NCBI GenBank assembly: GCA_019695215.1
Contig: JAIBAK010000009.1
Span: 13,389 to 77,388, forward strand
From: Bacteroidia bacterium
Lineage (GTDB): Bacteria > Bacteroidota > Bacteroidia > UKL13-3
Direction of reading: 5' to 3'
Length of the DNA stretch: 64,000 nucleotides
The stretch's first letter is position 1. Each line of letters starts with the position of its first letter. Below the pieces are notes generated by a model, which worked only from the letters and a program-made list of their open reading frames with translations, did not search any database and was not told the DNA's origin. The position numbers and the translations under genes were made by a program. This document shows, one piece after another, positions 4,978 through 19,318 of this stretch.

Positions 4978-5628
4978 ATGAGGTTTTTAGCACTTTTGTT
5001 TAGTTTACTGCTGGTAAGTTTTACGCCAGCAACTACTTCGGTAAAAATTGCCCGCTTAAAATACAATGGCGGAGGAGACTGGTATGCAAATAAGACTTCG
5101 CTCCCCAATCTTATTCGTTTTTGCAACCAGCAACTCAAAACCAATATACAGGGAGAAGAGGACATTGCTGATGCAGGCAGTCCTGATATTTTTAATTATC
5201 CGTTTGTTCATATGACCGGCCATGGAAACGTGGTTTTTTCTTCTTCAGAAGCAGAAAACCTGCGCAAATACCTGATTGCCGGTGGCTTTTTGCATATTGA
5301 CGATAACTACGGCCTGGATAAATTCATTCGCAGGGAAATGAAAAAAGTTTTTCCCGAACTCAATTTTATAGAATTACCATTTAATCACCCTGTATATCAT
5401 CAGACGTTTCAATTTAGCAATGGATTGCCTAAGGTTCACGAGCATGACGGAAAACCAGCTCAGGGTTTCGGATTAATCTACAATGGCAGGCTGGTTTGTT
5501 TTTACAGCTACGAGTGTGATTTGGGTAACGGATGGGAAGATCAGGAAGTGTACAACGACCCTGAAGCCGTAAGACTAAAAGCGCTTCAAATGGGTGCCAA
5601 CCTTATTCAGTTTGCCTTTGCCCGTTAA
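4978..5628 (+). CDS. DUF4159 domain protein (secreted)
   Basis: Signal peptide followed by KIARLKYNGGGDWYANKTSLPNL, consistent with DUF4159. Confidence 0.4.
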   Translation: MRFLALLFSLLLVSFTPATTSVKIARLKYNGGGDWYANKTSLPNLIRFCNQQLKTNIQGEEDIADAGSPDIFNYPFVHMTGHGNVVFSSSEAENLRKYLIAGGFLHIDDNYGLDKFIRREMKKVFPELNFIELPFNHPVYHQTFQFSNGLPKVHEHDGKPAQGFGLIYNGRLVCFYSYECDLGNGWEDQEVYNDPEAVRLKALQMGANLIQFAFAR

Positions 5629-6182
5629 TTGAACCTGAGGTCGGGCGGAGAATTACCCAAAACCGCAAAATCAGTCCCCATTTTGGCTAAAACAGTTTTC
5701 CATAACAATTCCGGATGGTCATGAAAAATGCATTCAATTTCGGCCTTAGAAACAAACCAGGCATGCTCTGTGAGTTCGTCATCTAACTGGCCTGCCGACC
5801 ATCCTGAATAACCTATAAAAAAACGAATCTGATTTTCGCCAACAATTTCGTTTCGTATACCTAGGGCAATTGCCTCCAAATCACCTCCCCAGAATACACC
5901 CGGTTGAATTTGCTTGGAATCAAGTGAAAACTGCGGGCAGGAATGAATAAAATGAAGTGTGTTTTGCTCCACGGGGCCGCCATAAAACAACCTATGCGTA
6001 AGTCCGGTAAATTCAGGCAAAATATCAGAAAGAGTTAAATTAGTGGGGCGATTCACAACAAAACCTACGGCACCACTTGCATCATAAGCAGTAAGGTAAA
6101 CTGCAGTCCGGTTAAAATTGGGGTCGGGCAGAAAAGGATCTGAGAGAAGAAATCTGCCTGCCTTAAGAGGTATCCTATGCAT
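5625..6182 (-). CDS. YqgE/AlgH family protein (UPF0301/DUF179)
   Basis: LLSDPFLPDPNFNRTAVYLTAYDASGAVGFVVNRPT ... FYGGPVEQN ... GYSGWSAGQLDDEL, the characteristic AlgH/YqgE pattern. Its 3' end overlaps the convergent upstream gene by 4 nt. Confidence 0.75.
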   Translation of the reverse strand: MHRIPLKAGRFLLSDPFLPDPNFNRTAVYLTAYDASGAVGFVVNRPTNLTLSDILPEFTGLTHRLFYGGPVEQNTLHFIHSCPQFSLDSKQIQPGVFWGGDLEAIALGIRNEIVGENQIRFFIGYSGWSAGQLDDELTEHAWFVSKAEIECIFHDHPELLWKTVLAKMGTDFAVLGNSPPDLRFN

Positions 6183-6346
6183 GAAAGTGTTATTGAACGG
6201 GTTTATATAACGTCAAATTTAGTACATTGAACGAAACTTGACCGAAGATGTGGAATAAATACAGAGTTTTGCTCACTGATTGGAAAAATTAGAACCCGTT
6301 TTTTTAATTAATTATACTAATTTTATCCCGTTAAGCACCACACACA

Positions 6347-6709
6347 ATGAAGATATTAATTGCTGAAGATGAGCAGATGCTGAAGAAGGCCGTTGAGTTC
6401 AAACTTAAGAAGGATGGTCATGAAGTTTTCACAGCTGCCGATGGGCGGGAAGCGTTGAGCCTTATTAAAGAAAATTCATTTGATATGATTATTACTGATA
6501 TCATGATGCCATTTGCATCAGGATTGGAGATAATCAGCCATGTAAGGGCACAGGGACTTAAAATGCCTATTATTGTTGTGTCATCTATCGGACTTGAAAA
6601 TACTGTTCTGGAAGCATTTAAACTTGGAGCTGATGATTTTATTACAAAACCTTTCAGCCCAAATGAACTATCAATGCGTGTAAATAGATTATTGTCCAAA
6701 ATATCATAG
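6347..6709 (+). CDS. stand-alone response-regulator receiver domain (CheY-like), first gene of the exopolysaccharide locus
   Basis: MKILIAEDEQML ... MIITDIMMP ... IIVVSS ... KLGADDFITKPF. The acidic pocket, phospho-acceptor D and the K are all present. Its stop overlaps the start of the next gene at 6709. Confidence 0.8.
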   Translation: MKILIAEDEQMLKKAVEFKLKKDGHEVFTAADGREALSLIKENSFDMIITDIMMPFASGLEIISHVRAQGLKMPIIVVSSIGLENTVLEAFKLGADDFITKPFSPNELSMRVNRLLSKIS

Positions 6710-8415
6710 TGAAAACACAGAAATGGTGTACTACTCCCTTTTCACCTTCGGGGATTAAAACTTTTTTACTTGCTTTTTGGGTGATACTCTCGGGTATTTC
6801 CTCGTTTGGCCAACAGTTGCCCAATGTTGATTCGATGTATATAGCAGCTAAAAACATTGGATTCAGAGGTGTGTACGATACTGCGCGAATGGAAATGGAT
6901 ACCGTACTGCTGTATGCCCCCAATTATTTAGATGCTCGAACCTTTATTGCCCGTACATGGAGTTGGGAAAATCAATATGAAAAATCGCGTGCCCAACTTA
7001 AATTAGTATTAGATAAAGACCCGAATAATTATGAAGCACTGGATGCACTGGTTGATGCATTCAGGTGGCCAAATGAAATTGACACCGCTTTGGCCATATG
7101 CGAAAAAGGCATGAGCCTTTTTCCGTCCGATACCATGTTCAAGTATAAAAAGCATGAAGTAATACGGCAGCAGCGAAACATAAAACTCAGCTACAATCAA
7201 ATTATGGCCGATTCCTTTTATATGAAGGGAAGGTCACTTGCCTTCAAAGGTAAATACCAGGAAGGACGCGTGTGGCTTGATTCATCCATTAAAAGAGATC
7301 CGCTTTTTTTTGATGCGTATATTTTAAAAGCCCGCACTTTTAGCTGGCAAAAAAAATATGATGAAGGGCGGCCTGTGCTTAATTATGTGCTGCTCAACGA
7401 TACCCTGCCCTCAAGAAGGAAGGATGCTTACAGTGCCTTAGCTGATTTGGAAATGTATGCCTCAAAAAACAAAAAATCGGGAAAAGTGTGCGACACTGCA
7501 TTAACTCAATTTAAAAAGGCTGTTGAGTTTCATAAGAAAAAATCAATTACGCTGGCCAACGAAGATTATTACAAAGAAGCCATCCCCGAACTTCAGCTTT
7601 ACCTCGATTCGGTAAAAACCGATACCCCGGCCGTCAAAATGATGGAAGATTTTAAATTTAAAAAATTACGGAATTACGTGGGGGCAGGCTGGGTGCATCA
7701 GATGTATAATCCAAAAACCACCTTTGCCCCATGGGATTTTGGAAATCTGGAATACGGACACAGGTTTAGAAAAGTGCAGTCAATTGGTCGAATAAACTAC
7801 GCAAAACGATTCGGCAGGCAGGCATTGCAGTTTGAAGTTGATAATTATATAAAAATTTTCAGAGGCACTACCCTGTTTACCAATATTGGATTTTCAAATA
7901 AAAATATTTTGTATCCGCGCTTTCGTTTAGGTGCCGAGGTGTATCAGAATGTACATAGTAAATTTGACGTTTCGCTGGGATACCATATGCTTTTTTACGA
8001 ACCCGATTCGGTGCGGGAAACTTTTCATATGATGGTAGGTTCCGTTGGCTACTATTACAAAAAATGGTGGTTTTCCTACAGGCCTGTTGCCGTTTTAGAA
8101 CCTTATGGAAAAGGTTCAACCACGTTATCTAATACAGTTCAGGCAAGGTGGTATTATAAATCGGATTACGATTACATAACGTTCATGTTAGCCTATGCAA
8201 ACGGTGCTATAGGCCTAAACAATCCCACCGCTGTAATTCTGGGTGAAAAAAACTTTGTGAAACTTCAAACCATACGAGCCGGCATTGACTTTCAACGCAG
8301 ACTTAATACAACTGTTTTTGGAGGGCTCGGTACCTGGTGCGATTATGATGAGTACTCGGCCAACAAGTACCGTTACCGTTTTACGCTTACACTCAATCTG
8401 AAAAAAGTTTTTTAA
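6709..8415 (+). CDS. TPR-repeat N-domain plus C-terminal YaiO-like outer-membrane beta-barrel (PgaA/NfrA-like exopolysaccharide porin)
   Basis: Signal peptide, then TPR-like helical repeats (YEALDALVDAF, YILKARTFSWQKKYDEG). The C-terminal half has alternating aromatic beta-strand patterns and ends in a C-terminal Phe (LNLKKVF), the outer-membrane-protein signature. Confidence 0.5.
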   Translation: MKTQKWCTTPFSPSGIKTFLLAFWVILSGISSFGQQLPNVDSMYIAAKNIGFRGVYDTARMEMDTVLLYAPNYLDARTFIARTWSWENQYEKSRAQLKLVLDKDPNNYEALDALVDAFRWPNEIDTALAICEKGMSLFPSDTMFKYKKHEVIRQQRNIKLSYNQIMADSFYMKGRSLAFKGKYQEGRVWLDSSIKRDPLFFDAYILKARTFSWQKKYDEGRPVLNYVLLNDTLPSRRKDAYSALADLEMYASKNKKSGKVCDTALTQFKKAVEFHKKKSITLANEDYYKEAIPELQLYLDSVKTDTPAVKMMEDFKFKKLRNYVGAGWVHQMYNPKTTFAPWDFGNLEYGHRFRKVQSIGRINYAKRFGRQALQFEVDNYIKIFRGTTLFTNIGFSNKNILYPRFRLGAEVYQNVHSKFDVSLGYHMLFYEPDSVRETFHMMVGSVGYYYKKWWFSYRPVAVLEPYGKGSTTLSNTVQARWYYKSDYDYITFMLAYANGAIGLNNPTAVILGEKNFVKLQTIRAGIDFQRRLNTTVFGGLGTWCDYDEYSANKYRYRFTLTLNLKKVF

Positions 8416-8417
8416 AG

Positions 8418-10238
8418 ATGACTGTATGCCGCAACATTCTTTTACCATTTATATGCATTTTGCTGATTGCGGCAAACGTTGCAGCACAGAATACGCCAAA
8501 AGAAGTAATGTTACAACCGGTTTACTACCATGCTCCTGCCGGAGAAAACATACGTGTAGTAGCCAAAAAATATAAACTGAGTGAACGAACACTTGCCTCA
8601 CGTAACAGAATACCCGCGCACAAGCTCTTTCAAAAAACAACTGCGGTTATCATTGGGTACAGCATGGTACCGGCAGGGGAACTAAGCAACCCGCCCGAGA
8701 ATGCTTTTATCGTAGATGAAGAAACGGCTAAAATTTATTCGATCGTTCCTCAAAATTTTCTTGCCGATTCAGTTAGTATCTCCCCTTTCCTCTTTGCCAA
8801 ATTAACAATACAACCGGAAGAAGTAACGGCCACTACTCCTGAAATTATTCAGGAACCCGTAACTCCGGAAGTGAAAGAAAAGGGAACAGCTCCTCCTGCC
8901 GCACCCACCAGTACAGCTACGCCAACTGCAGGCGAATTAGCCAAAACAATTACGGATGATAAAGGAGATTTTGCGCAGGATACTACAGAAGACAGCGACC
9001 CTACCATCAATAATATTTCTCCAAAAAACCAGGCCGGCACCATGGAAAGCTATTTTGCCGACAGAGTTAGAGAAATCGAAGAAAGTGCCATAGACTCAAG
9101 TAATGTTGAGATTGAATTTTTCGAGTCCCCTTCAGGCTGGTTTGCCCAAACCTACCGGGCACAGCCAACCATTATCCAGCGCGGAATTATTATTTTATGT
9201 TTCTTTATTTTCGGGAACATTACTCTTTTCATTGTTATAATCAGTAGTCGTGTGTATAAATCTTACGTAGAGTTACGTAAAAAGCGGTTGATTGAAGTGT
9301 ATGAACCTTTGCTGGCTAATTTATTATTTGGTAAATACGACACGGAAGAACGCAGAATGCATGTGGTGAGGCGTATAAAAAAAAGATACCTTGTAAATGA
9401 ATTTAACAATGAAGTTTTTTTACAGGAGTTGTTAAATCTGCACAAAAATTTTTCGGGAGATGTATGCGATGAAATCCGAAACCTTTACCTGGAGTTTAAC
9501 CTGCTCAAATTTAGTATGAGAAAACTTAAAGCTTTTCCATGGGATGTGAAGATAAAAGGTATAAGGGAGCTTACCCAAATGGATATAAAAGACGCCTATG
9601 ATGAAATATTTAAATTTGTCGACAGCAAAAATCCAATCCTTCGTCTGGAAACGCTGTTATCCCTCATTCAGCTCAGCGAATCAGACCCGCTGAAATTTTT
9701 GAGCAATACCAAAGCTAAAATGACCGGCTGGCAACAGGTAAATATTTTAGCCATTCTTTCCATTTTAAATACTGACGATCTGCCGGATTTTAAACGCTGG
9801 CTTAATTCGCCCAACGACTCGGTATCATTATTTACCATTCGCATGATTAACCATTTTAAACAAATAGGTTCAGTAAACGCTGTAATACCTTTACTTGAAG
9901 ACCCAAGAGAAGAAATACGGGAAGCTATTATTGATACAATAGGTAATTTAGAATTATACGGATTTGCCGACCAGTTAATTGATACGTTTGGAAAAGAACA
10001 AGACAGGTTGAAGGTGAAAATACTGCAGGTAATGACTAAAATAAGTGATGATGACCAGATACCCTTTTTCAAACAGGAACTCTTCAGCCCTAACTTTGCA
10101 ATAGCCCTTAACTCGGCAATAGCGCTGGTAAAAACAGGCGCCAAAGGGAAAAATGAGCTGACATTATTATTGGAATCGGCAGATGAACGCAGTTCAAAAA
10201 TTATCAAACATGCACTTGACAAAAGAATAGTAAAATAA
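8418..10238 (+). CDS. modular membrane protein: signal peptide, LysM-like segment, Pro/Thr-rich linker, one TM helix, cytoplasmic HEAT/PBS-lyase-like repeats
   Basis: YYHAPAGENIRVVAKKYKLSERTLASRNRI is LysM-like. PEEVTATTPEIIQEPVTPEVKEKGTAPPAAPTSTATPTAGE is the linker and IIILCFFIFGNITLFIVIIS the TM helix. Repeated alpha-helical units follow (IRELTQMDIKDAYDEIFKFV ..., IREAIIDTIGNL ...). Starts 3 nt after the upstream stop. Confidence 0.45.
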   Translation: MTVCRNILLPFICILLIAANVAAQNTPKEVMLQPVYYHAPAGENIRVVAKKYKLSERTLASRNRIPAHKLFQKTTAVIIGYSMVPAGELSNPPENAFIVDEETAKIYSIVPQNFLADSVSISPFLFAKLTIQPEEVTATTPEIIQEPVTPEVKEKGTAPPAAPTSTATPTAGELAKTITDDKGDFAQDTTEDSDPTINNISPKNQAGTMESYFADRVREIEESAIDSSNVEIEFFESPSGWFAQTYRAQPTIIQRGIIILCFFIFGNITLFIVIISSRVYKSYVELRKKRLIEVYEPLLANLLFGKYDTEERRMHVVRRIKKRYLVNEFNNEVFLQELLNLHKNFSGDVCDEIRNLYLEFNLLKFSMRKLKAFPWDVKIKGIRELTQMDIKDAYDEIFKFVDSKNPILRLETLLSLIQLSESDPLKFLSNTKAKMTGWQQVNILAILSILNTDDLPDFKRWLNSPNDSVSLFTIRMINHFKQIGSVNAVIPLLEDPREEIREAIIDTIGNLELYGFADQLIDTFGKEQDRLKVKILQVMTKISDDDQIPFFKQELFSPNFAIALNSAIALVKTGAKGKNELTLLLESADERSSKIIKHALDKRIVK

Positions 10239-10239
10239 C

Positions 10240-11730
10240 ATGGATAAATACTTAGAGCTCATAGGCGACTTTTTTGATTCATTTATATTTTACTATGCCA
10301 TTTCATTGTGCTTCTCTTATTTTACCCTTGCTATTGTTTCGGCCTTTGAAATGCGGCACTACATGAAGAAAAACAGTTTTATTGACTATCGCACCATTCT
10401 CAGTTCACATTTGCAGCCATCTATTTCACTCATTGCACCTGCCTATAATGAAGGAGCCAATATTGTTGAAAATGTCCGGTCACTTTTATCCATTCACTAT
10501 GGCAACTACGAAGTAATTATTGTGAATGACGGAAGCAAAGATGACTCAATTGCCGTGTTAGTACAAAACTACGAACTTGAAAAGGTAGACTACGCTATAA
10601 ATGAACAATTGCACACTAAACCTGTTAGGGGGGTATATAAATCGAAAAACTCTGCCTTTAGCAAATTACTTGTGGTTGACAAGGAAAACGGAGGAAAAGC
10701 AGATGCATTAAACGTGGGTCTTAATATCTCACAGAGTGATTTGGTGGCATGTGTGGATGTAGACTGTGTGATAGAACAGGATGCACTTGTAAAAATGGTT
10801 AAGCCGTTTATTGAAGAAGAAACGAGGGTAATTGCAACTGGCGGTGTAGTGCGTATTGCCAATTCATGTGAAATAGAAAATGGCAAACTCATTAAAGTAA
10901 ACCTGCCTGACGAATTGCTGCCAAGAGTTCAGGTTATCGAATATATACGTGCTTTTTTGATGGGACGCATGGCCTGGAGTAAATTAAACGGCCTTTTACT
11001 TATCTCGGGCGCGTTTGGATTATTTGACCGCGATATTGCCATTAAAAGTGGCGGGTACAATCATAAAACAGTAGGCGAGGATATGGAACTGGTGGTGCGC
11101 ATGCGTATCTGGTGCCACGAAAATGATTTAAAATACAGAGTCGTTTATATTCCCGATCCGCTTTGCTGGACCGAAGCTCCCAATAATACCAAAATTTTGG
11201 GCCGCCAGCGAAACCGATGGGCCAGGGGCACTGCTGAAACATTGTGGTTTCACCGTAAAATTTTCCTCAATCCCAAATACGGAAAACTGGGAATTTTAAG
11301 TTACCCCTTCTGGCTGCTGTATGAGTGGCTTGCTCCGTTTATTGAATTTTTCGGAGTGTTGTTTTATATCATTCTTGCCATCCTTGGATTTTCTACCTGG
11401 CAATTCTTTTTCATGATCATCAGTTTGATTTACGCTTTTGCAGTGATGATGTCCATATCGGCAATTCTTTTTGAAGAAATGTCGTACCATCAGTATAAAA
11501 ATAAACGGGATATGTTCAGGATGATGGCAACTGCTTTAATAGAACCTATTTTCTATCACCCTATGACGGTAAAATGGTCGCTTGAAGGAAATATAGACCT
11601 GCTCACCGGTAAGAAAAACTGGGGTGAAATGACCAGGCAGGGATTGGGTAAAAAGAAAGCTAAAAAAGAAAAGACACAGGCCAAACCGGAAGAACCCGAT
11701 AAGGAAACACCGGCCCCGCCTTCTAGTTAA
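10240..11730 (+). CDS. processive family-2 glycosyltransferase (PgaC/IcaA/NfrB/BcsA-like polysaccharide synthase)
   Basis: N-terminal TM helices, then ISLIAPAYNEGANIVENVRSL, VIIVNDGSKDDS (DxD), VDVDCV, the TED-like acid GEDMEL, QRNRWARG (QxxRW) and C-terminal TM helices. The tail KKAKKEKTQAKPEEPDKETPAPPSS is low-complexity. Confidence 0.75.
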   Translation: MDKYLELIGDFFDSFIFYYAISLCFSYFTLAIVSAFEMRHYMKKNSFIDYRTILSSHLQPSISLIAPAYNEGANIVENVRSLLSIHYGNYEVIIVNDGSKDDSIAVLVQNYELEKVDYAINEQLHTKPVRGVYKSKNSAFSKLLVVDKENGGKADALNVGLNISQSDLVACVDVDCVIEQDALVKMVKPFIEEETRVIATGGVVRIANSCEIENGKLIKVNLPDELLPRVQVIEYIRAFLMGRMAWSKLNGLLLISGAFGLFDRDIAIKSGGYNHKTVGEDMELVVRMRIWCHENDLKYRVVYIPDPLCWTEAPNNTKILGRQRNRWARGTAETLWFHRKIFLNPKYGKLGILSYPFWLLYEWLAPFIEFFGVLFYIILAILGFSTWQFFFMIISLIYAFAVMMSISAILFEEMSYHQYKNKRDMFRMMATALIEPIFYHPMTVKWSLEGNIDLLTGKKNWGEMTRQGLGKKKAKKEKTQAKPEEPDKETPAPPSS

Positions 11731-12904
11731 AAACAGAAATCATTTCTTTACCCTGCCGTTTTCGGTGTTCGTTTATAGCCGTTCGGATAAGCGGAATATA
11801 ATATTCCCAAAAAAATCGTTTTCTGTTTTCAAGTTCAATCTGCGAATAAAACATGGAACGAAAATTACGAATGCCCCGCAACTTTGACGACATCATGCCT
11901 ATTTGATTGTCGCAAAAATCAGCTGAGAAATAATAATAATTGGAATCGCCCGAATGATGCTCGATAGATGCGATGAAAGTTTTAGGAATATGATAATAAT
12001 TCAAAATGGAATCGCCCGAACCATTTGTTTTCATATTGAAAACCGACATCACATTGTTGTTTGCCCTTGCATTCAGCGTTACTGCAAACCAAAAAGGATA
12101 TAAAATATTATCGGGAAGGTTATACGATTTCTGATACTTCTCATCGGTGTAAATAATCGGTATCGGAAAATTCATGTGCCTTTTCTCATCCAGTATAACA
12201 ATTTTATCGCTGGTGTGCACATATACCAGCCCCCCATCCTTAAAAGGATATTTACCTCCGTGTTGCTTGCGATACAGCCTCCAAACCCACGGAGGTAATT
12301 CTTTATTTTTTACGGTATCAAGTGATGAAAAATACCTTCCTACCCATCCGGTCCATTGTAATCCTAAAAGCTCTTCACATTTTTGCCGCAATGCATAAGA
12401 AGTAGGCAATGCATACAAACTAAATTCGGTAATAACAGTCTTTCTCTTTTCCACCATCTTTTTCAACAGCTCAAAATCGTTTCTGTGCAGTCCACCATAA
12501 ATTAATTCCGACCGTTCTTTGTCATTCCCCCTTTTGTACCATTCATTGTGATAAATACCATACGTATCGGTGTAATAGGCCATCTCATAATAGGATGCCA
12601 TACTATCTAATTCCGCATCCGTATAATCTGTCAAATCCTTTACATCAAACTGAAAATCTTCTAAAGGGAAAAAGCCCATATAATCTTTATCAATTTTGTA
12701 TAAATCCCCGTTAGGTTTGGTAATTTTCATGTGATCAAGAATCCAGTTGAACGATCGGTGCTCCAACCCTTCTTTAGTGAGCACGGTTTTATCAAGGATA
12801 AAAATTTTCATGGGATATTGGCTTTGAAACAACCAAATAACCCAGAGAATGAACGGGAATAGTAAAATTACCAGTAGAATAATCCGAACTGCTTTGCGTA
12901 CCAT
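11723..12904 (-). CDS. uncharacterised membrane-anchored protein (N-terminal TM, large Trp/Tyr-rich extracytoplasmic domain), convergent to the synthase
   Basis: 393-aa ORF. RIILLVILLFPFILWVIWLF is the TM anchor; no family recognised by eye. Its end overlaps the synthase stop by 8 nt. Confidence 0.4.
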   Translation of the reverse strand: MVRKAVRIILLVILLFPFILWVIWLFQSQYPMKIFILDKTVLTKEGLEHRSFNWILDHMKITKPNGDLYKIDKDYMGFFPLEDFQFDVKDLTDYTDAELDSMASYYEMAYYTDTYGIYHNEWYKRGNDKERSELIYGGLHRNDFELLKKMVEKRKTVITEFSLYALPTSYALRQKCEELLGLQWTGWVGRYFSSLDTVKNKELPPWVWRLYRKQHGGKYPFKDGGLVYVHTSDKIVILDEKRHMNFPIPIIYTDEKYQKSYNLPDNILYPFWFAVTLNARANNNVMSVFNMKTNGSGDSILNYYHIPKTFIASIEHHSGDSNYYYFSADFCDNQIGMMSSKLRGIRNFRSMFYSQIELENRKRFFWEYYIPLIRTAINEHRKRQGKEMISVFN

Positions 12905-12992: not shown

Positions 12993-13643
12993 ATGGAAAT
13001 GAGTAATGAACATATTGCGGCACTCCGTAAAGAATACCTGCTGAAAGAATTTGATGAAAGCCATTTAGTAGCCGACCCTTATAATCAGTTTAAGCTTTGG
13101 TTTAAAGAAGCCATTGAATCGGAAGTAAACGAACCCAATGCCATGATGCTGGCAACAGCTTCGGCAAACGGACAACCTCACGCCCGTATTGTACTGCTTA
13201 AAGGCTTTGATCACGAAGGACCCGTTTTTTTCACCAACTATCAAAGCGATAAGGGAGAACAGATAAAGGAAAATAATAAAGTAGCCCTTACTTTTTTCTG
13301 GCCCGAACTCGAGCGGCAGGTTCGTATTGAAGGAACCGCAGCGCTAATTCACCCCGAGCAATCGGATGAGTATTTTTACAGTCGCCCTATTGGCAGTCAG
13401 ATTGGTGCGCATGTGTCGCCCCAGAGTAAAGTAATTGTGAACAGGATGTTTTTAGAAGACCGCGTGAGGGAGTTTGAAAAAATATTTTCCGAACAACCTT
13501 TACTAAGGCCTGAACATTGGGGAGGTTATGTGGTAAAACCTCATTTATTTGAATTTTGGCAGGGACGCAGCAGCCGACTTCACGATCGTTTTTTATTTAC
13601 ACGTAAAGGTAAAGGATGGCAAATAGAACGACTTGCTCCCTAA
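12993..13643 (+). CDS. pdxH: pyridoxamine 5'-phosphate oxidase
   Basis: PHARIVLLKGFDHEGPVFFTNYQSDKG ... LERQVRIEG ... FWQGRSSRLHDRFLF, the canonical PdxH. Confidence 0.9.
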   Translation: MEMSNEHIAALRKEYLLKEFDESHLVADPYNQFKLWFKEAIESEVNEPNAMMLATASANGQPHARIVLLKGFDHEGPVFFTNYQSDKGEQIKENNKVALTFFWPELERQVRIEGTAALIHPEQSDEYFYSRPIGSQIGAHVSPQSKVIVNRMFLEDRVREFEKIFSEQPLLRPEHWGGYVVKPHLFEFWQGRSSRLHDRFLFTRKGKGWQIERLAP

Positions 13644-14764
13644 TTTTTTACCGGTGCAGGCATTCCCTGTTTATTGATAAAGAAAACATGATTCAGGTAT
13701 TGCACCTGTGCCAATCCAAAGCTAAAGGGCGAAACCCCGTCAAACTCGGGCTGAATAACCACCTTTCCTTTTTTATTCATAAAACCCCATCGGCCATGTT
13801 TACGTATAGCTGCCATTCCGTTTGAAAAACCCTGAGCTTCATCAAGAGTGAGCGGTACAAAAATGGCTCCTTTGCTATCTATAAATCCCCATTTTTTATT
13901 AATCATTACCGCTGCATACCCTTCGGAAAATGATTCGGCATAATCATACTCGGGTTTTATGATTACCTTTTGCTTAAGATTAATATATCCTATTTTATCT
14001 TTCATACGCACCGCAATTAATCCCTCGGCATAATCGGAGGCAAAAGTATATTTGGGTTTAATAAGTACTTTCCCTTTTGTATTCACAAAACCGGCCAATC
14101 CGCCTAAATCAATGCGGGCAACTCCGCCTGAAAACGGATAAATATAATCATACACAGCTGGCAGCAAAAATTTACCATGCGCATCTATCAGCCCGTATTT
14201 GTTTTTCATTTTTACACGCGCCACGCTATCCGCAAAATCTCCCGCATCAAAAAACTGACAGGGAATAACCAACGTACCGGTTTTATCCATATACCCGAAT
14301 TTAAAAACCAACATAGCGGTGCGTCCTTTAATTTTTACATCTTCCTGCACACTCACCACCGCTAGCCCGTTGTGAAACAATTGTGCATCATAAAAATCTA
14401 GAGGAACGTCAAGCACTTTAGCCCCTGTTTTGTCAATATAGTAGCGTTCGTTTTGGTCTCCGTGAATACGTGCCCATCCCTCCGAAAAAGCGGAGGCACT
14501 TTGGCAGGTAAGCGGCCCTATCACCACTTTACCTGCAGGGTCGATATAAAACTTCTTTCCCTCCCGCTCAACTAAAGCAAGGCCTTCGCTAAACTCATCG
14601 GCATATGAGTAAATGGTATCAATTGCCAAATGGCCTGTTTCATTCAGGTAGCCGTATTTTTTATTCCATTCAAAAGGAGTAAGGTTATTTCCCTGTGCCA
14701 TTAACCGCCCTGATAGGATGAGCAATGTTGATGTAACAAGAATGTACTTTTTGATATATCTCAA
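13640..14764 (-). CDS. WG-repeat (KWG) containing secreted protein
   Basis: Repeated WGFIDSKG / KYGLIDAHGKFLLP / IGYINLKQKVIIKPEYDY units. The longest ORF runs to 14845, but a TTG at 14764 gives a clean signal peptide (M)RYIKKYILVTSTLLILSGRLMAQ. The start is uncertain. Confidence 0.55.
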   Translation of the reverse strand: MRYIKKYILVTSTLLILSGRLMAQGNNLTPFEWNKKYGYLNETGHLAIDTIYSYADEFSEGLALVEREGKKFYIDPAGKVVIGPLTCQSASAFSEGWARIHGDQNERYYIDKTGAKVLDVPLDFYDAQLFHNGLAVVSVQEDVKIKGRTAMLVFKFGYMDKTGTLVIPCQFFDAGDFADSVARVKMKNKYGLIDAHGKFLLPAVYDYIYPFSGGVARIDLGGLAGFVNTKGKVLIKPKYTFASDYAEGLIAVRMKDKIGYINLKQKVIIKPEYDYAESFSEGYAAVMINKKWGFIDSKGAIFVPLTLDEAQGFSNGMAAIRKHGRWGFMNKKGKVVIQPEFDGVSPFSFGLAQVQYLNHVFFINKQGMPAPVKN

Positions 14765-14909
14765 AATAATGTAGTTAATATAGTAAGCAATAAACAAAAA
14801 TAACCTGTGCCGGCCATTTAATCCAAGGCACATTATCAACATCAACCGAAAACTGTTTGCTTTTATACCCTACCTTCGCCACAGGCATGATAGCCCTCTT
14901 TAATTCGGG

Positions 14910-15909: not shown

Positions 15910-16782
15910 TTAACCAAGAGAATCAATTAGTTCGGACGGAGTAATTGACAATATTTCCTTTTCTTTTATAAAAATATAATTCACAAGAAAAATAAAATTA
16001 TTAAGACTTAGAGGCAAAAGAAAATTACTTTCAAATATTTTTGTTAGCAATTCAATCCTGTCCACTTTAAAAAAATCTCTAATAAAGTCCTCCGTTAATA
16101 ATATTTCTAACTTCTCAGAAATGTCATAATCAGAAATACGGATTCTAAACTTTGTTCGAACCATTGGAATAAACTCCTTTGCTTTGTAGTGCCTAAAGCT
16201 TAACTGTTCAAAAAGTCTAAGGATTGCATACTCACTTGTCTCTAAGGAGGCTAATATCCCATTAAAACTCCTTTCCAATTCGCTATGATCCTGCCAATCT
16301 TTCTTACATTTATATCTTAAGTCATGATCTACTTCATGCCACCCTTCAGATAATACAGTTCTAAGTTGAATTTCAAAAGTGTCATCAACCATTTTACTTT
16401 TGATGATTTCCTTAAACTCCTTGTTAAAAGTAGTAGGAAGTTTAAATACTAAATTCAATTTGGTGGGAGCAAATTTAGTTGCCTCATTTTTGTCAATGGT
16501 TTCCTCAACAAATGGGAAAAACCCTTTGAGCCTGTTATAAACGATTGGAACATCATCAGAAAAATATAATATAACCCTTATTCCAATTGCATCTCTTATT
16601 AACTTCGTTTCCCCATCATAATAGTTTTTTCCCTTGGAAATTATTTTTGTATTCAAAGACTGATCTGTTTTTACTCGACTAAATATCCTAAAAATTAATC
16701 CGGCTCGAGAAATTTCATCTTCAATTAGTGTCGAAACATTTTTTGTAATTCTGTCGAGGTCTCTAGGTTGATACTTAATCAT
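15910..16782 (-). CDS. RelA/SpoT-domain (small alarmone synthetase / toxSAS-like) nucleotidyltransferase, second gene of the AT-rich island
   Basis: RIFSRVKTDQSLNTKIISKGK ... LIRDAIGIRVILYF and TFEIQLRTVLSEGWHEVDHDLRYK match the RSH synthetase fold motifs (R-x-K...GxR, E-x-Q-x-RT...W-x-E-x-x-H...YK). Its start overlaps the upstream gene in an ATGA overlap. Confidence 0.6.
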   Translation of the reverse strand: MIKYQPRDLDRITKNVSTLIEDEISRAGLIFRIFSRVKTDQSLNTKIISKGKNYYDGETKLIRDAIGIRVILYFSDDVPIVYNRLKGFFPFVEETIDKNEATKFAPTKLNLVFKLPTTFNKEFKEIIKSKMVDDTFEIQLRTVLSEGWHEVDHDLRYKCKKDWQDHSELERSFNGILASLETSEYAILRLFEQLSFRHYKAKEFIPMVRTKFRIRISDYDISEKLEILLTEDFIRDFFKVDRIELLTKIFESNFLLPLSLNNFIFLVNYIFIKEKEILSITPSELIDSLG

Positions 16783-18908
16783 AATTGTAATTCATCTCTT
16801 ATCTCCTGAATTTTATTGATATTAAAATTAATTTGCGACCCCCGAATCTGAATATAACCCTGATATTCCAGTTGATTAAGGGATTGCATAACAAGTTTCC
16901 TATTAATTGTATTCAATTTATGTAATAACTTAAGAATATGTTGAGACTTAGTGGAAGAAATTGACCATAATTCCTTAATAATAACTTCCTCAACCTCATC
17001 AAATAAATGATTATCTTGTTTAGAATGATAATCGTAATGTTCCAAAATTTCACATTCCTTTAATTTACTTTTTATGCTTGATATCTCTTTGGTAGAATCA
17101 AGATAAATTGAATTTTCGACTTTACAAGCATCAAAGGTACAATCAACGAAACTAACTCCATTAAATACAATAGGGTCAAAAATACAAGCTTTAAAATAAC
17201 AGTTTAGAAAAACAGAATTAGAAATACTATGTTTCAAAAAAGGAATATTAAAAAAAGTGGTGTCATAAACCGACAATTCATAATAATCTCTCTCCAGTTC
17301 CTCTCTAAGGATAATGTCATAATTAAAAATTGAAATAGGCTGGAGCTTATGAGTTACGCTATTAACTTTCTCCCATAGGCTTTGTTTATTTCTTTTATTT
17401 TGCACCTTGTATGCGGTACAAGCAAGGTCAAGCATATAATATGAATAATCCTTCTCGATCTTTTCAACAGGTGACTCACAGATTATTTCACCAATTAATA
17501 TTCCCAATACGAAATCATTGATAAATCCAATTTGACTTTCATCTCTCCCTTTCCTATCTAATAATGCGTGTGTGGCTAGTGTATCAACTAAATTCTCAAG
17601 AGTAGGTTTTTCGGCACCTGAGTATAAGGTCCTAGTGTATTCTAAAAGTTTACTATTTTGGTCTTTAATAATCTCCTTAAAAAACTCCTTAGATTCCACG
17701 GTTATATCAAATTCTAATAAAAGTTTTGCTACATTCTTAAAGATTTCGTACTGTTTCTCTTTTGTAATAATTAAGTTCTGGCGTTCCTTCTCTCTCTCAA
17801 GCATTCTATCAAAATACTGTTTAACTAATAAATCAGGACTAATGATCTGGCTCAAAAAATCTTCTCTTGAAATATTTTTTAGGTAAGTTAATAAAACTGG
17901 ATTAGCAATATATTGAATAGGAATATTTCTATCCTTGATTTGGTTAAACCTAGTAGTCCCAACCCAATCCTTAATCCTAGGCTCCTTTAAAGTTAACCTT
18001 GTAACATTGAACTTAGTATTCCATTTTGCAAGCCATTTATCAAACTCTAGTCCACTAAAAATTGCCGTCTTCCGTGTTGTGAGAATAATCTTTGCATTTT
18101 TTTCAAGGAGGTTTCCAATAGTATCAAGCATTGTTTCAATTTCGTCAAATGATTTTGACACATCACTATCTGAAATATTGACCTTTTCAAGAAGCTCATC
18201 AAAGCCATCAATTATTAGGGGGATTCTCCCATTTTTTATCTCGTGAATTACTAGCTCAGAATTAAGAGTTGGAAATTCTAAATCTATTTCATCTAAAAGA
18301 ATGTATCTAAATATTTTGGCTCCTCTATTCTTTGACAATTCAGTAAAAAGGGGGGAAACCAATTCACTTTTATTGTCAGTTAAAGTATTCAGTATCTCAT
18401 ATGCTGCACATGTTTTTCCGTAACCCGCTGCGGCTTCAATAATCAATAACTGGGGTGACCTCGTTGAGATAATTCCTTTTATCTTCTCTAACAATCCTAG
18501 ATTATTATTATTATTATCAAACTGCTCGTATACTTCAAAAGGACTTTCAATGTACTCGTACTTATTTCCGAGCAGTGCCTTTGTTTGTTTATTAACGAAA
18601 TCGTTGTATTTCTTCTTCAGTCGAAGAATAGTAAGGTCATAAGAAAAGAAACTCTTAAACAATTCGCGTTCTACATCTCTAATATCTTTAAAGCATTTAA
18701 CATAAGAAGCATAACCAAGTGCTGAATACCTAAGTTTTATTTTTTCTGCTCTTCCCTTAGTTTCTTCGTCTGAGACTAGTGGAACTATATCTACCCCAAA
18801 ATATCTACTTTTTTTAAACAAAAAACTTGCGATATTTTCTTCTTCATGCTTTACTTCAAATCCATATGTTTTGTAGGTAACTTCTAACTGTTTTAAATCT
18901 ATCTTCAT
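16779..18908 (-). CDS. NACHT-type STAND NTPase (bacterial NLR-like), first gene of the AT-rich island
   Basis: Walker A IIEAAAGYGKTCAA and Walker B LIIDGFDEL (the hhhhDGhDE NACHT signature), followed by ILTTRK. An unrecognised N-terminal domain of about 150 aa ends in an NNNNN tract. The C-terminus has Cys/Phe-rich pentapeptide-like repeats (NCYFKACIFDPIVFNGVSFVDCTFDACKV). Confidence 0.6.
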   Translation of the reverse strand: MKIDLKQLEVTYKTYGFEVKHEEENIASFLFKKSRYFGVDIVPLVSDEETKGRAEKIKLRYSALGYASYVKCFKDIRDVERELFKSFFSYDLTILRLKKKYNDFVNKQTKALLGNKYEYIESPFEVYEQFDNNNNNLGLLEKIKGIISTRSPQLLIIEAAAGYGKTCAAYEILNTLTDNKSELVSPLFTELSKNRGAKIFRYILLDEIDLEFPTLNSELVIHEIKNGRIPLIIDGFDELLEKVNISDSDVSKSFDEIETMLDTIGNLLEKNAKIILTTRKTAIFSGLEFDKWLAKWNTKFNVTRLTLKEPRIKDWVGTTRFNQIKDRNIPIQYIANPVLLTYLKNISREDFLSQIISPDLLVKQYFDRMLEREKERQNLIITKEKQYEIFKNVAKLLLEFDITVESKEFFKEIIKDQNSKLLEYTRTLYSGAEKPTLENLVDTLATHALLDRKGRDESQIGFINDFVLGILIGEIICESPVEKIEKDYSYYMLDLACTAYKVQNKRNKQSLWEKVNSVTHKLQPISIFNYDIILREELERDYYELSVYDTTFFNIPFLKHSISNSVFLNCYFKACIFDPIVFNGVSFVDCTFDACKVENSIYLDSTKEISSIKSKLKECEILEHYDYHSKQDNHLFDEVEEVIIKELWSISSTKSQHILKLLHKLNTINRKLVMQSLNQLEYQGYIQIRGSQINFNINKIQEIRDELQL

Positions 18909-19257
18909 AGCGTTTTAGACATCTAAACTATTATTGCTTTTTTCAATCAAACAAACGAAATATTAATCGAAATATTTAACAAAACTATTCACCCCAACTT
19001 TTTATAGCCGAATATGATAATCAAACCTCTTTAGGTTCTCAAATCTGAAATTATCTAATTTAAACACTTAAATTACTGCTCTAATGAATGCTTCATTGTC
19101 AAATATATGAATATCATTCAAAAAGTGCAAGAATATAACAGGTTATGAATCCAATAACCTTATTTTAGTAAGCCATTAAATTATGCCCAATGAAGTACAA
19201 TAAAACAAAATTTAATTCTATTAGAGTGGCAATCCACTTACTTAATAAAATTTAACT

Positions 19258-19298: not shown

Positions 19299-19318
19299 GG
19301 TGGTTATAGGCACAGAGG

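What the first reader, a model, noticed from the sequence alone, without database searches (positions are those of the whole stretch)
6347..12904. Synthase-dependent exopolysaccharide locus of the PgaAC / NfrAB / YaiOP type with unusual accessory components
Seen in sequence. There are four tightly coupled plus-strand genes (stop/start overlaps or 2-3 nt gaps). They encode a receiver-only response regulator; a secreted TPR protein whose C-terminal half looks like a YaiO-type beta-barrel ending in Phe; a LysM-like/TM/HEAT-repeat protein; and a GT2 synthase with DxD, TED-like and QRNRW motifs and N- and C-terminal TM helices. An unknown TM-anchored 393-aa protein lies convergent to them. Established knowledge: PgaA and NfrA combine periplasmic TPR with an outer-membrane porin, and PgaC, NfrB and BcsA are QxxRW GT2 synthases. 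In those systems c-di-GMP receptors (PgaD, MshEN, PilZ) provide activation. Here there is no PgaB-like deacetylase, PilZ or MshEN domain. Instead there is a phospho-receiver and a HEAT protein with a periplasmic LysM-like glycan-binding segment. Inference: this is a phosphorylation-controlled secretion system for a GlcNAc- or ManNAc-type polymer with a non-canonical co-polymerase or activator.
Basis: partly seen in the sequence, partly recalled or inferred. Interest (0 to 1): 0.65.

Follow-up and report, generated by a model that had tools for sequence, protein, structure and literature searches.

The report
Phosphorelay-linked polysaccharide secretion operon in Bacteroidota
This is a real four-gene operon, conserved across Bacteroidota but never described, for making and exporting a surface polysaccharide; its PgaC-like synthase is always paired with a membrane-anchored HEAT-repeat protein and a stand-alone phospho-receiver where other bacteria use a c-di-GMP sensor.

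Summary
Four tightly packed plus-strand genes encode a receiver-only response regulator (RR), a TPR + YaiO-family outer-membrane protein, a signal peptide/TM/HEAT-repeat protein, and a PgaC-like GT2 synthase with every processive-synthase motif. A 393-aa membrane-anchored protein (P393) lies convergent to them. There is no PgaB, PgaD, PilZ or MshEN.

Comparative genomics adds the main result. Thirty-one further related loci were examined. In the 28-locus ORF set (27 relatives plus the window), TM-HEAT and GT2 occur in all 28, with a gap of -14 to +11 nt in 27 of 28 adjacent pairs. A single-domain RR accompanies the pair in every complete locus. In many relatives a hybrid kinase with HPt, or a stand-alone HPt, lies directly upstream. 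In one locus the terminal receiver is fused to the kinase.

The TM-HEAT family has 1,945 50%-identity clusters, and none carries a functional name. The "LysM-like" segment fails every HMM test. It has a beta-alpha-alpha-beta model and aligns with genuine LysM in orthologues; other members carry SPOR.

P393 has a glutamine-amidotransferase-like fold without a conserved Cys and is an optional accessory.

Still untested: the polymer's identity, direct gating by the phosphorylated RR, and co-transcription. Verdict: a new variant of synthase-dependent exopolysaccharide secretion.

The parts
6183..6346 (+). Intergenic region upstream of the RR gene. It is shared with the divergent DUF179 gene and presumably holds the operon promoter.
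   Evidence: 164 bp, AT-rich. There is no exact Bacteroidota -7 motif TAnnTTTG on the + strand. One lies on the - strand at 6214-6221 and would serve the divergent gene. The motif is not enriched in the window (85 found, 82 expected). The promoter is therefore not identified.
6347..6709 (+). Stand-alone receiver (single-domain response regulator, 120 aa) with no output domain.
   Evidence: Response_reg 6e-29 over residues 3-112. E7, D8, D51, K101 and P102 are invariant, and S79 is conserved in >=75%, among 20 module-linked RRs. Orthologues share 42-63% identity across distant Bacteroidota. It is fused to an HK-REC-HPt protein in L010.
6709..8415 (+). Secreted TPR + YaiO-family outer-membrane protein (568 aa), the putative export porin with a periplasmic TPR scaffold.
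   Evidence: GTG start overlapping the RR stop. A weak N-terminal hydrophobic segment at 15-33 is consistent with a signal peptide. TPR families and the YaiO domain were assigned.
6823..7608 (+). TPR region of the 568-aa protein (about residues 39-300).
   Evidence: TPR_19 1e-8, TPR_14, TPR_17 and TPR_2. The only PDB sequence matches are designed TPR proteins. The family HMM picks up the TPR parts of NfrA (4e-8) and PgaA (9e-6).
7672..8412 (+). YaiO-family beta-barrel domain (residues 322-568), ending in Phe.
   Evidence: PF19413 4.2e-34 and TIGR04390 3.1e-28. Gly/Tyr/Phe are enriched relative to the N-terminal half, and the C-terminal residue is F in 20 of 23 family members.
8418..10238 (+). 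Bitopic inner-membrane HEAT-repeat protein (606 aa): signal peptide, periplasmic N-terminal module, disordered linker, one TM helix and a cytoplasmic alpha-solenoid.
   Evidence: HEAT_2 2e-13. AF2 model with pLDDT 67.7. Hydrophobic segments at 1-19 and 257-275. The core (residues ~250-606) occurs in all 28 loci of the ORF set (27 relatives plus the window), next to GT2 in 27.
8502..8666 (+). Degenerate LysM-derived beta-alpha-alpha-beta module (residues 29-83), periplasmic.
   Evidence: AF2 gives strand 29-39, helix 45-51, helix 56-63 and strand 75-83 at pLDDT ~83. It aligns with LysM-1 of orthologue P0140, which scores Pfam LysM 1.9e-25. No Pfam hit at E<=10. hhalign probability is 2.3%.
9171..9257 (+). 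Single TM helix of the HEAT protein (about residues 252-280).
   Evidence: Kyte-Doolittle peak of 2.99 at 257-275. The AF2 helix 252-304 has pLDDT 87-90. The preceding PTIIQ motif is conserved as far as Flavobacterium.
9345..10217 (+). Cytoplasmic HEAT/ARM-like solenoid (residues 310-600), the proposed docking platform.
   Evidence: About 19 helices. Foldseek finds only generic alphaRep, armadillo, importin-alpha, beta-catenin and PP2A-A matches. The family has 1,945 50%-identity clusters at E<=1e-3.
10240..11730 (+). Membrane-embedded processive GT2 synthase (496 aa), PgaC-like.
   Evidence: Pfam GT2 families. PgaC_IcaA scores 1.3e-40 but falls below the equivalog cut-off. Motifs are invariant in 29 homologues. 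PDB sequence match to hyaluronan synthase over residues 61-397. 27% identity to E. coli PgaC.
11723..12904 (-). P393: an N-terminally membrane-anchored, probably periplasmic protein with a GATase1/ThuA/GIFT-like fold. Optional accessory.

Best explanation
The locus encodes a trans-envelope, synthase-dependent polysaccharide secretion machine of a Bacteroidota-specific design.

Proposed parts and roles:
- The GT2 (PgaC-like, with D/DxD/GED/QRxRW motifs) polymerises a sugar from a nucleotide-sugar donor. The donor is probably a HexNAc; this is inferred, not shown. The enzyme threads the chain through its own membrane channel.
- The TPR-YaiO protein receives the chain in the periplasm and passes it across the outer membrane.
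- The bitopic HEAT protein is an obligate inner-membrane partner of the synthase. It is translated from the adjacent, translationally coupled gene.
- Its single TM helix packs against the synthase, and its cytoplasmic alpha-solenoid is a docking platform.
- Its variable periplasmic N-terminus tethers the machine to peptidoglycan or touches the nascent glycan. That N-terminus is a degenerate LysM here; it is genuine LysM or SPOR in relatives and is absent in most.
- The stand-alone receiver is the last acceptor of a hybrid-kinase-to-HPt phosphorelay. In its phosphorylated form it binds the HEAT/GT2 complex and switches polymerisation on. It thus fills the role that c-di-GMP receptors (PgaD, PilZ, MshEN) have in Proteobacteria.
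- P393 is an optional periplasmic polymer-handling accessory of unknown activity.

Shown here: the domain content, the motif integrity, and the conservation and coupling of the genes.

Inferred: the RR-HEAT-GT2 contacts, post-translational gating, the polymer type and the peptidoglycan tethering.
For: - Domains and motifs.
- The synthase is closest to PgaC, and the match extends into the C-terminal TM region (family HMM 1.8e-32). It matches hyaluronan synthase over the whole catalytic and TM core.
- HEAT and GT2 are each in 28 of 28 loci of the ORF set. HEAT is directly upstream of GT2 in 27 loci (all but L014). The gap is -14 to +11 nt in 27 of the 28 adjacent pairs; L028 contributes two pairs.
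- The same module is recovered when anchoring on HEAT or on P393.
- A single-domain RR with an intact phospho-acceptor pocket is in every complete locus. It has no DNA-binding domain, so its output must be a protein contact.
- A hybrid HK-REC-HPt or a stand-alone HPt lies directly upstream in many loci. L010 carries MASE7-HK-REC-HPt-REC as one polypeptide, whose terminal REC is 44% identical to the window RR.
- HEAT solenoids are protein-binding scaffolds.
- Peptidoglycan-binding modules (LysM once or twice, SPOR) recur at the periplasmic N-terminus.
- The outer-membrane component is present in 22 of 28 loci of the ORF set within the flank held, and in L031 and L038-L040.
- Precedent for direct activation of EPS synthesis by a phosphorylated single-domain RR: EpsW-EpsZ in Myxococcus (PMC12802240).
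- An early census found many histidine kinases but no diguanylate cyclases in four Bacteroidetes genomes (PMC1183210).
Against: - No experiment and no complex model supports RR-HEAT or HEAT-GT2 contact. No HEAT-GT2 or RR-HEAT fusion was found; the long family members are only longer HEAT proteins.
- Sequence conservation of the HEAT domain across the family is modest.
- The window has no kinase or HPt gene within 64 kb, so the RR here is an orphan.
- In L028 a second HEAT-GT2-YaiO copy has no RR of its own.
- The barrel was assigned by HMM only. A crude beta-moment scan was not discriminating.
- Promoter and terminator scans do not exceed chance, so co-transcription rests only on spacing.
- The polymer is unknown. 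The GT2 fails the PgaC equivalog cut-off.
- The census cited for c-di-GMP covers only four genomes and dates from 2005.
Confidence: 0.6

Rival explanations
1. The secretion machine is as described, but the receiver does not touch the synthase complex. It would act as a phosphate sink or connector within a branched phosphorelay. Control of polysaccharide production would then be transcriptional or indirect, and the HEAT protein would be a purely structural co-polymerase or assembly factor.
For: - Single-domain receivers often serve as phosphate sinks or relay intermediates (established knowledge of two-component systems).
- Several loci carry extra RR-like genes and HPt proteins, which points to branched relays.
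- The second HEAT-GT2-YaiO copy in L028 works without its own RR.
- The window's RR has no nearby kinase.
Against: - The RR gene sits inside or at the head of the structural operon in every complete locus. It stays there through rearrangements that move YaiO and P393.
- The module-linked RRs form their own orthologous group, 42-63% identical across orders against ~30% to other receivers.
- No DNA-binding regulator is conserved in the loci.
- The EpsW precedent shows that direct activation exists.
Confidence: 0.22
2. The product is not a free secreted exopolysaccharide. It would be an envelope-retained glycan: a periplasmic or peptidoglycan-associated polymer, analogous to osmoregulated periplasmic glucans or a wall-linked glycan. 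The LysM/SPOR modules and the LtaS/OpgB-like transferase would then reflect envelope attachment and phosphoglycerol decoration.
For: - An LtaS/OpgB-like (phosphoglycerol-transferase-type) membrane enzyme follows the GT2 in 7 of 28 loci of the ORF set, and in L031 and L038.
- Peptidoglycan-binding modules sit on the HEAT protein.
- The two-component input could report envelope stress.
Against: - A TPR + outer-membrane barrel gene accompanies the synthase in most loci. That is the hallmark of export across the outer membrane in the Pga, Bcs, Alg and Nfr systems.
- Periplasmic decoration of a secreted polymer has a precedent: BcsG on cellulose (established knowledge).
- The window locus has no LtaS-like gene.
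Confidence: 0.1
3. It is simply a divergent orthologue of the canonical Pga poly-beta-1,6-GlcNAc system, and nothing is functionally new.
For: The best NCBIfam hit of the GT2 is PgaC_IcaA (1.3e-40). PgaC is the closest E. coli synthase.
Against: - The score is 139.7 bits against an equivalog cut-off of 422.3.
- There is no PgaB, PgaD or PgaA-type porin. The barrel is YaiO-family.
- The HEAT and RR partners have no counterpart in pga operons.
Confidence: 0.05

Closest known systems
E. coli PgaABCD (poly-beta-1,6-N-acetylglucosamine synthesis and export)
   Same: - A membrane-embedded processive GT2 with the same motif set. PgaC is the nearest characterised synthase (27% identity over 276 aa; family HMM 1.8e-32).
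- An outer-membrane protein that combines periplasmic TPR with a C-terminal barrel.
- A small inner-membrane partner encoded next to the synthase.
   Different: - No PgaB deacetylase/hydrolase.
- No PgaD and no c-di-GMP-binding element.
- The barrel is YaiO-family, not PgaA-type.
- The partner is a bitopic HEAT-repeat protein encoded upstream of the synthase rather than downstream.
- A stand-alone receiver is part of the operon.
- The GT2 fails the PgaC equivalog cut-off.
E. coli YaiO-YaiP(-YaiS) locus (uncharacterised)
   Same: A YaiO-family outer-membrane domain (PF19413/TIGR04390) encoded near a GT2.
   Different: - E. coli YaiO is a 257-aa barrel without TPR.
- YaiP matches only the N-terminal GT-A domain (1.9e-14).
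- The E. coli locus has a putative deacetylase and an acyltransferase pseudogene, but no HEAT protein and no receiver.
- No function has been published. YaiO appears in the searchable literature only as a PCR marker.
E. coli NfrB-NfrA-YbcH (c-di-GMP-activated ManNAc-polymer secretion, the phage N4 receptor glycan; PMC8669469, PMC8669472)
   Same: The overall logic: a GT2 synthase, a TPR + outer-membrane barrel protein, and an auxiliary protein. Activity is controlled post-translationally by a signalling input.
   Different: - NfrB is not detectably similar to this GT2 by BLAST (E 0.47).
- NfrB carries a C-terminal MshEN c-di-GMP domain that is absent here.
- NfrA shares only TPR similarity.
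Myxococcus xanthus EpsW-EpsZ (PMC12802240)
   Same: A phosphorylated single-domain response regulator, fed by a dedicated kinase system, activates exopolysaccharide synthesis post-translationally by binding a membrane enzyme of the pathway.
   Different: - That system is a Wzx/Wzy-dependent pathway, and the target is the initiating phosphoglycosyl transferase.
- Here the pathway is synthase-dependent. The candidate target is a HEAT-protein/GT2 complex.
- The interaction here is only inferred.
BcsG / OpgB / LtaS-type periplasmic transferases (seen in relatives only)
   Same: About a quarter of related loci encode a multi-TM + sulfatase-fold enzyme directly after the GT2. This has the same architecture as the enzymes that decorate cellulose, OPGs or LTA with phospho-head-groups.
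   Different: Absent from the window locus. All scores are far below the equivalog cut-offs.

Membership tests
Synthase-dependent exopolysaccharide secretion systems (generic: Bcs, Pga, Alg, Pel, Nfr) | An inner-membrane processive family-2 glycosyltransferase with D, DxD, [TG]ED and QxxRW motifs and its own TM channel. | tested here: met
   Motifs are present and invariant in 29 homologues. TM segments flank the catalytic domain. GT2 HMMs hit. Alignment to hyaluronan synthase covers residues 61-397.
Synthase-dependent exopolysaccharide secretion systems (generic) | An outer-membrane beta-barrel porin coupled to a periplasmic TPR scaffold. | tested here: met
   TPR families plus YaiO PF19413 (118.5 bits, cut-off 23.9) and TIGR04390 (99.3 bits, cut-off 32). 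C-terminal Phe. The barrel topology itself was not modelled.
Synthase-dependent exopolysaccharide secretion systems (generic) | A c-di-GMP receptor element (PilZ, PgaD, MshEN or a degenerate GGDEF I-site) that activates the synthase. | tested here: not met
   No such domain in any of the five proteins. The HEAT family HMM does not hit PgaD. A receiver and a HEAT protein occupy this position instead.
Pga (PNAG) system | A PgaC equivalog (TIGR03937 at or above 422.3 bits). | tested here: not met
   139.7 bits.
Pga (PNAG) system | PgaB deacetylase/hydrolase, PgaD, and a PgaA-type porin. | tested here: not met
   No hits among the window proteins. BLAST and HMM against E. coli PgaA/B/D give only TPR-level similarity to PgaA.
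Nfr system | An NfrB-type GT2 with a C-terminal MshEN domain. | tested here: not met
   BLASTP E 0.47 against NfrB. The GT2 C-terminus after the TM region is a ~35-aa low-complexity tail.
YaiO family (PF19413 / TIGR04390) | The family HMM scores above its curated cut-off. | tested here: met
   However, an HMM built from the Bacteroidota TPR-YaiO proteins does not retrieve E. coli YaiO itself, so the relationship is distant.
LysM domain (PF01476) | Match to the family HMM. | tested here: not met
   No hit at E<=0.1 on the full protein. No hit at E<=10 on the isolated N-terminal 226 aa. hhalign against LysM of L031/L021 gives probability 2.3%.
LysM domain (PF01476) | Beta-alpha-alpha-beta fold, and homology by position to genuine LysM domains. 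| tested here: met
   AF2 gives strand-helix-helix-strand at residues 29-83 with pLDDT ~83. The end-to-end BLASTP alignment places it on LysM-1 of P0140, which scores LysM 1.9e-25. Orthologues in L031 and L040 have LysM hits. Glycan binding was not tested.
Two-component receiver (CheY-like) | An intact acidic pocket, phospho-acceptor Asp, Thr/Ser and Lys. | tested here: met
   E7, D8, D51, S79 and K101-P102 are conserved in 20 module-linked RRs. Response_reg 6e-29.
Class I glutamine amidotransferase-like superfamily (for P393) | Three-layer alpha/beta fold. | tested here: met
Class I glutamine amidotransferase-like superfamily (for P393) | A catalytic Cys-His-Glu triad. | tested here: not met
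   No Cys among the invariant or near-invariant columns of 52 homologues. P393 is therefore not a glutaminase. No sequence-level PDB relative exists.

The most novel reading that the evidence does not exclude
Bacteroidota, which are reported to have few or no diguanylate cyclases, may have replaced c-di-GMP control of synthase-dependent exopolysaccharide secretion with a dedicated phosphorelay. In this reading, a phosphorylated stand-alone receiver docks on the cytoplasmic HEAT solenoid of a previously unrecognised bitopic synthase subunit and licenses a PgaC-like enzyme. The same subunit would reach across the membrane to peptidoglycan through LysM or SPOR modules. This would be a new class of synthase co-subunit and a new activation principle for this type of secretion system.
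Probability: 0.35. Interest if true: 0.78.

Novelty: new variant of a known kind. Interest (0 to 1): 0.6.

Why it matters
Synthase-dependent exopolysaccharide systems (cellulose, PNAG, alginate, Pel, Nfr) are the best-understood biofilm-matrix machines. Their activation is regarded as a c-di-GMP paradigm.

This module is widespread in Bacteroidota from soil, water, sludge and gut-related habitats. Its TM-HEAT family has 1,945 50%-identity clusters. Every member that carries a name is annotated 'hypothetical' or 'HEAT repeat domain-containing', and nine literature searches found no description of it.

If the proposed mechanism holds, it gives three things:
- A second activation principle for this class of machine, phosphorylation-based instead of c-di-GMP-based.
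- A new type of synthase partner subunit.
- A handle on matrix or capsule production in a phylum whose biofilm polysaccharides are poorly known.

It is directly testable in cultured carriers found here: Flavobacterium spp., Zobellia alginiliquefaciens, Nibribacter koreensis, Foetidibacter luteolus, and Zhouia and Salinimicrobium isolates.

Tried and rejected
1. **HEAT-GT2 fusions.** Many TM-HEAT family members are 750-1196 aa with the homologous part at the N-terminus, which suggested fusions to the synthase. Pfam shows only additional HEAT repeats. Rejected.
2. **LysM by HMM or profile.** Nothing on the full protein or the isolated N-terminus. hhalign is not significant. The LysM link is kept only as 'LysM-derived', on structural and orthology grounds.
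3. **Kinase in the window.** tblastn with hybrid kinases and HPt proteins from relatives finds only receiver domains, at 6347-6697 and 54089-54292.
4. **Promoter and terminator evidence for co-transcription.** Sigma-70-type, Bacteroidota -7 motif and terminator scans are all at or below chance. Uninformative.
5. **Simple beta-strand hydrophobic-moment scan of the YaiO domain.** Only 4 strong peaks, so not discriminating.
6. **P393 as an obligate member.** Three of four P393-anchored neighbourhoods lack the module within 7 kb. Downgraded to an optional accessory.
7. **P393 as a glutaminase.** There is no conserved Cys.
8. **Fold search of P393 against AFDB50.** The library was unavailable.
9. 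**Foldseek of the HEAT model.** Only generic solenoids.
10. **PDB sequence searches for P393 and TPR-YaiO.** Nothing useful.
11. **Literature.** Searches on YaiO, HEAT + GT2 + RR, PNAG in Bacteroidota, and family accessions found no description of this module.

Full report
**1. Observation**

- The RR is at 6347-6709 (+).
- The TPR-YaiO protein is at 6709-8415 (+). It has a GTG start that shares one base with the RR stop.
- The HEAT protein is at 8418-10238 (+), after a 2-nt gap.
- The GT2 is at 10240-11730 (+), after a 1-nt gap.
- P393 is at 11723-12904 (-). Its 3' end overlaps the GT2 3' end by 8 nt.

Pfam and NCBIfam confirm the domain calls.
- Response_reg scores 6e-29 with no output domain.
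- Several TPR families cover residues ~40-225.
- YaiO PF19413 scores 4e-34 and TIGR04390 scores 3e-28 in the C-terminal half.
- HEAT_2 scores 2e-13.
- The membrane GT2 families hit, with weak Chitin_synth_2.

The 568-aa protein ends in Phe, as do 20 of 23 relatives. No PgaB, PgaD, PilZ or MshEN-type domain is present. Two details needed correction. LysM is not detected by any HMM. The 393-aa protein belongs to no described family.

**2. The synthase**

The motifs are invariant in all 29 family members collected: NDGS-D, NGGKADALN, DVD (172-174), GGY...VGEDMEL (GED at 278-280), CWTE and QRNRW (322-326). Hydrophobic segments lie at 15-33, 364-382 and 393-411.

The nearest curated family is PgaC/IcaA (1.3e-40), but at 139.7 bits against a cut-off of 422.3 it is not an equivalog.

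- PgaC is closest: 27% identity over 276 aa. The family HMM scores 1.8e-32 and reaches into the C-terminal TM region.
- YaiP matches only the GT-A domain (1e-13 to 1e-14).
- NfrB is not detectably similar.

In the PDB, the only full-core sequence match is hyaluronan synthase, over residues 61-397. The enzyme is therefore a processive, membrane-embedded synthase. Its sugar is unknown; a HexNAc is the best guess from the PgaC, HAS and chitin-synthase affinities.

**3. Conserved context (the main new result)**

A scan of one genome per species found 26 related loci, all in Bacteroidota: Bacteroidia MAGs, Nibribacter, Pontibacter, Foetidibacter, Zhouia, Salinimicrobium, Paludibacter, Chitinophagaceae and others. 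tblastn and ORF clustering were then applied to a 28-locus ORF set: 27 related loci plus the window itself. Four further loci came from look-ups anchored on HEAT or P393. That makes 31 related loci examined beyond the window.

In the 28-locus ORF set:
- TM-HEAT is in 28 of 28 loci.
- GT2 is in 28 of 28 loci.
- HEAT is directly upstream of GT2 in 27 loci. The exception is L014, where a kinase is interposed.
- The stop-to-start distance is -14 to +11 nt in 27 of the 28 adjacent pairs, with a median of 1. L028 contributes two pairs.

A single-domain RR is present in every complete locus. It is usually the first gene of the module. It is fused to the kinase in L010 and lies on the other strand in L017.

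The YaiO-family gene is within the flanks held in 22 of 28 loci, but its position varies. It can sit between the RR and HEAT, after the GT2, or on the opposite strand.

Look-ups anchored on the HEAT protein recover the same module.
- Zobellia: HPt-RR-HEAT-GT2-sulfatase-TPR/YaiO.
- L039: RR-RR-TPR/YaiO-SPOR/HEAT-GT2, with P393 convergent.
- L040: RR-LysM/HEAT-GT2-TPR/YaiO-P393.

A P393-anchored look-up (L031) gives RR-TPR/YaiO-LysM/HEAT-GT2-sulfatase, with P393 convergent. Flavobacterium sp. LB2R40 carries two tandem HEAT-GT2-YaiO copies, and only the first has a kinase and an RR.

**4. Signalling input**

The RR keeps E7, D8, D51, S79 and K101-P102. These are invariant or nearly so in 20 module-linked RRs, which share 42-63% identity across orders.

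In many relatives the gene directly upstream is one of two kinds.
- A hybrid sensor kinase. The L013 example is PAS-HisKA-HATPase-REC-HPt.
- A stand-alone HPt protein.

In L010 a single 970-aa protein reads MASE7-kinase-REC-(HPt)-REC. Its last receiver is 44% identical to the window RR. This makes the RR the terminal acceptor of a His-Asp-His-Asp relay.

The window, like its closest relatives L001-L005, has no kinase or HPt gene nearby. tblastn finds none in the whole 64 kb.

**5. The HEAT protein**

The AF2 model has mean pLDDT 67.7, about 80-90 in the folded parts. Its segments are:
- a signal peptide;
- a beta-alpha-alpha-beta unit at residues 29-83;
- small elements up to residue ~130;
- a disordered Pro/Thr/Ala/Glu-rich linker at 134-246;
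- one long TM helix from residue 252;
- about 19 helices of alpha-solenoid at 310-600.

Foldseek finds only generic alphaRep, armadillo, importin-alpha, beta-catenin and PP2A-A matches. That marks it as a protein-binding scaffold.

Only residues ~250-606 are conserved across the family. An exhaustive profile search finds 1,945 50%-identity clusters at E<=1e-3, of which 687 are at <=1e-30. Every named member is 'hypothetical' or 'HEAT repeat domain-containing' and comes from Bacteroidota.

Long members (750-1196 aa) are not GT2 fusions. They only carry more HEAT repeats.

The N-terminal extension is variable. It is absent in most members. It is low-complexity in L007 and multi-TM in L009, L013 and L016. 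It is one or two genuine LysM domains in L031, L021, P0140, P0163 and P0239, and SPOR in P0197.

The window's segment gives no LysM signal by HMM or hhalign. An end-to-end BLASTP alignment with P0140 (1e-76) nevertheless places 'PVYYHAPAGENIRVVAKKYKLSERTLASRNRIP' on P0140's first LysM, 'PKYHRVKAGESLFSIAQQYQLKLHTLQKLNKIE'. I conclude that it is a degenerate LysM-derived module. LysM and SPOR are both peptidoglycan-binding modules. This suggests the extension tethers the machine to the cell wall, or alternatively binds a GlcNAc-containing product. Both readings are inference.

**6. P393 and other accessories**

- ThuA-like proteins;
- the GH42 trimerisation domain;
- OST48/WBP1;
- IFT52-N;
- domains of Agd3 and PelA.

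No Cys is conserved among 52 homologues. The invariant residues are Asp, Lys, His, Glu, Tyr and Trp. It is therefore not a glutaminase, and its activity is unknown.

It is next to the module in 10 of 28 loci of the ORF set, and in L031, L039 and L040. In L040, L017 and L020 it is co-directional and operonic. Three of four distant homologues sit elsewhere. It is an optional accessory.

A different optional accessory is absent from the window. It is a multi-TM + sulfatase-fold protein closest to LtaS/OpgB-type phosphoglycerol transferases. It follows the GT2 in about a quarter of loci, which suggests that some versions of the polymer are decorated in the periplasm.

**7. Mechanism**

The best-supported reading is a synthase-dependent secretion machine. 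The GT2 polymerises and translocates the chain. TPR-YaiO exports it. The bitopic HEAT protein is an obligate partner subunit. The phosphorylated stand-alone receiver is the switch.

The following are shown here:
- the parts and their motifs;
- their universal co-occurrence;
- translational-coupling distances;
- the upstream phosphorelay in relatives.

The following are inferred:
- the physical RR-HEAT-GT2 contacts;
- post-translational gating;
- peptidoglycan tethering;
- the polymer type.

Two literature points bear on plausibility. In Myxococcus, the phosphorylated single-domain RR EpsW activates EPS synthesis by binding the initiating phosphoglycosyl transferase (PMC12802240). An early census noted many histidine kinases but no diguanylate cyclases in four Bacteroidetes genomes (PMC1183210). 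That sample is old and small.

The rivals are:
- The RR is a relay or phosphate sink with indirect control (0.22).
- The glycan is retained in the envelope rather than secreted (0.10).
- The locus is a plain Pga orthologue (0.05). This is contradicted by the failed membership tests.

**8. Limits**

- Co-transcription rests on spacing only, because promoter and terminator scans are at chance.
- The barrel was not modelled, since the two structure jobs went to P393 and the HEAT protein.
- No multimer prediction was available.
- The AFDB50 fold library was unavailable.
- The genome scan depends on peptide patterns and is not exhaustive.

**9. Novelty and score**

Nine full-text searches found no description of this module. 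YaiO appears only as an E. coli PCR marker. I class the locus as a new variant of a known kind: synthase-dependent EPS secretion with an undescribed TM-HEAT partner and a phosphorelay in place of c-di-GMP. Interest is 0.6. The module is coherent, widespread and directly testable, but the distinctive mechanistic claim is still inference.

Noticed in passing
window 15910-18908 (- strand), within the low-GC stretch 16001-20000: GC falls to 0.31-0.35 here, against ~0.40 elsewhere. Two overlapping genes encode a 290-aa RelA_SpoT-like nucleotidyltransferase (2e-13) and a 709-aa NA-iREase2 + NACHT STAND NTPase (7e-23; 1.5e-4). This looks like a horizontally acquired candidate anti-phage defence pair.
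   Followed up: partly
L001 (CAZHTC010000005.1): This is the closest relative of the window: all nine compared genes are 82-98% identical and fully syntenic. It is labelled 'uncultured Bifidobacteriaceae bacterium', while every other relative is Bacteroidota and the GC is ~40%. It is probably a mis-binned or mislabelled MAG.
   Followed up: no
L028 10001-20323 (Flavobacterium sp. LB2R40): Two tandem HEAT-GT2-YaiO modules. The first has a PAS sensor protein, an RR and a sulfatase-fold/TPR protein. The second has no RR of its own. There is an unannotated gap at 8211-9602 between the PAS protein and the RR.
   Followed up: partly
L010 1172-4084: A 970-aa single polypeptide reads MASE7 - histidine kinase - REC - (HPt-like) - REC. 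It lies directly upstream of HEAT-GT2. Its terminal REC is orthologous to the window's stand-alone RR, so the whole phosphorelay is in one protein.
   Followed up: partly
L006 9411-11423; L028 12564-14954; L031 8577-10601; L038 11321-13708: A multi-TM + sulfatase-fold protein, closest to LtaS/OpgB-type phosphoglycerol transferases, follows the GT2 in about a quarter of loci. In L028 it is fused to C-terminal TPR that resembles PgaA TPR. This implies periplasmic decoration of the polymer in those species.
   Followed up: partly
L009 6274-7998; L013 6253-7974; L016 6023-7741: In these loci the HEAT protein has an N-terminal ~250-aa multi-pass membrane domain instead of a periplasmic module. This domain has no counterpart in the window protein and was not characterised.
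   Followed up: no
L032, L033, L034 (P393-anchored loci): Where P393 homologues are not next to the GT2 module, they share a different recurrent neighbourhood: DHO_dh, an RNase_T/GIY-YIG protein, DUF4197 and CN_hydrolase. In L032 and L033 a large PAS hybrid kinase, and in L033 also a sulfatase gene, lie 4-7 kb away at the edge of the locus. The module may lie just beyond the flank.
   Followed up: no
window 4978-5628 (+) and 5625-6182 (-): A DUF4159 protein (4.7e-73) and a DUF179 (YqgE-like) protein lie directly upstream (DUF179 assigned from the orthologous gene in L029). They are syntenic only in the closest relatives L001-L005, so they are not part of the module.
   Followed up: partly
window 54089-54292 (- strand): This is the only other receiver-domain match in the window to the hybrid-kinase queries. 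Its gene was not examined.
   Followed up: no
window 13640-14845 (- strand): A 401-aa protein made of seven WG_beta_rep repeats (1e-87). It is syntenic with the locus only in the close relatives.
   Followed up: no
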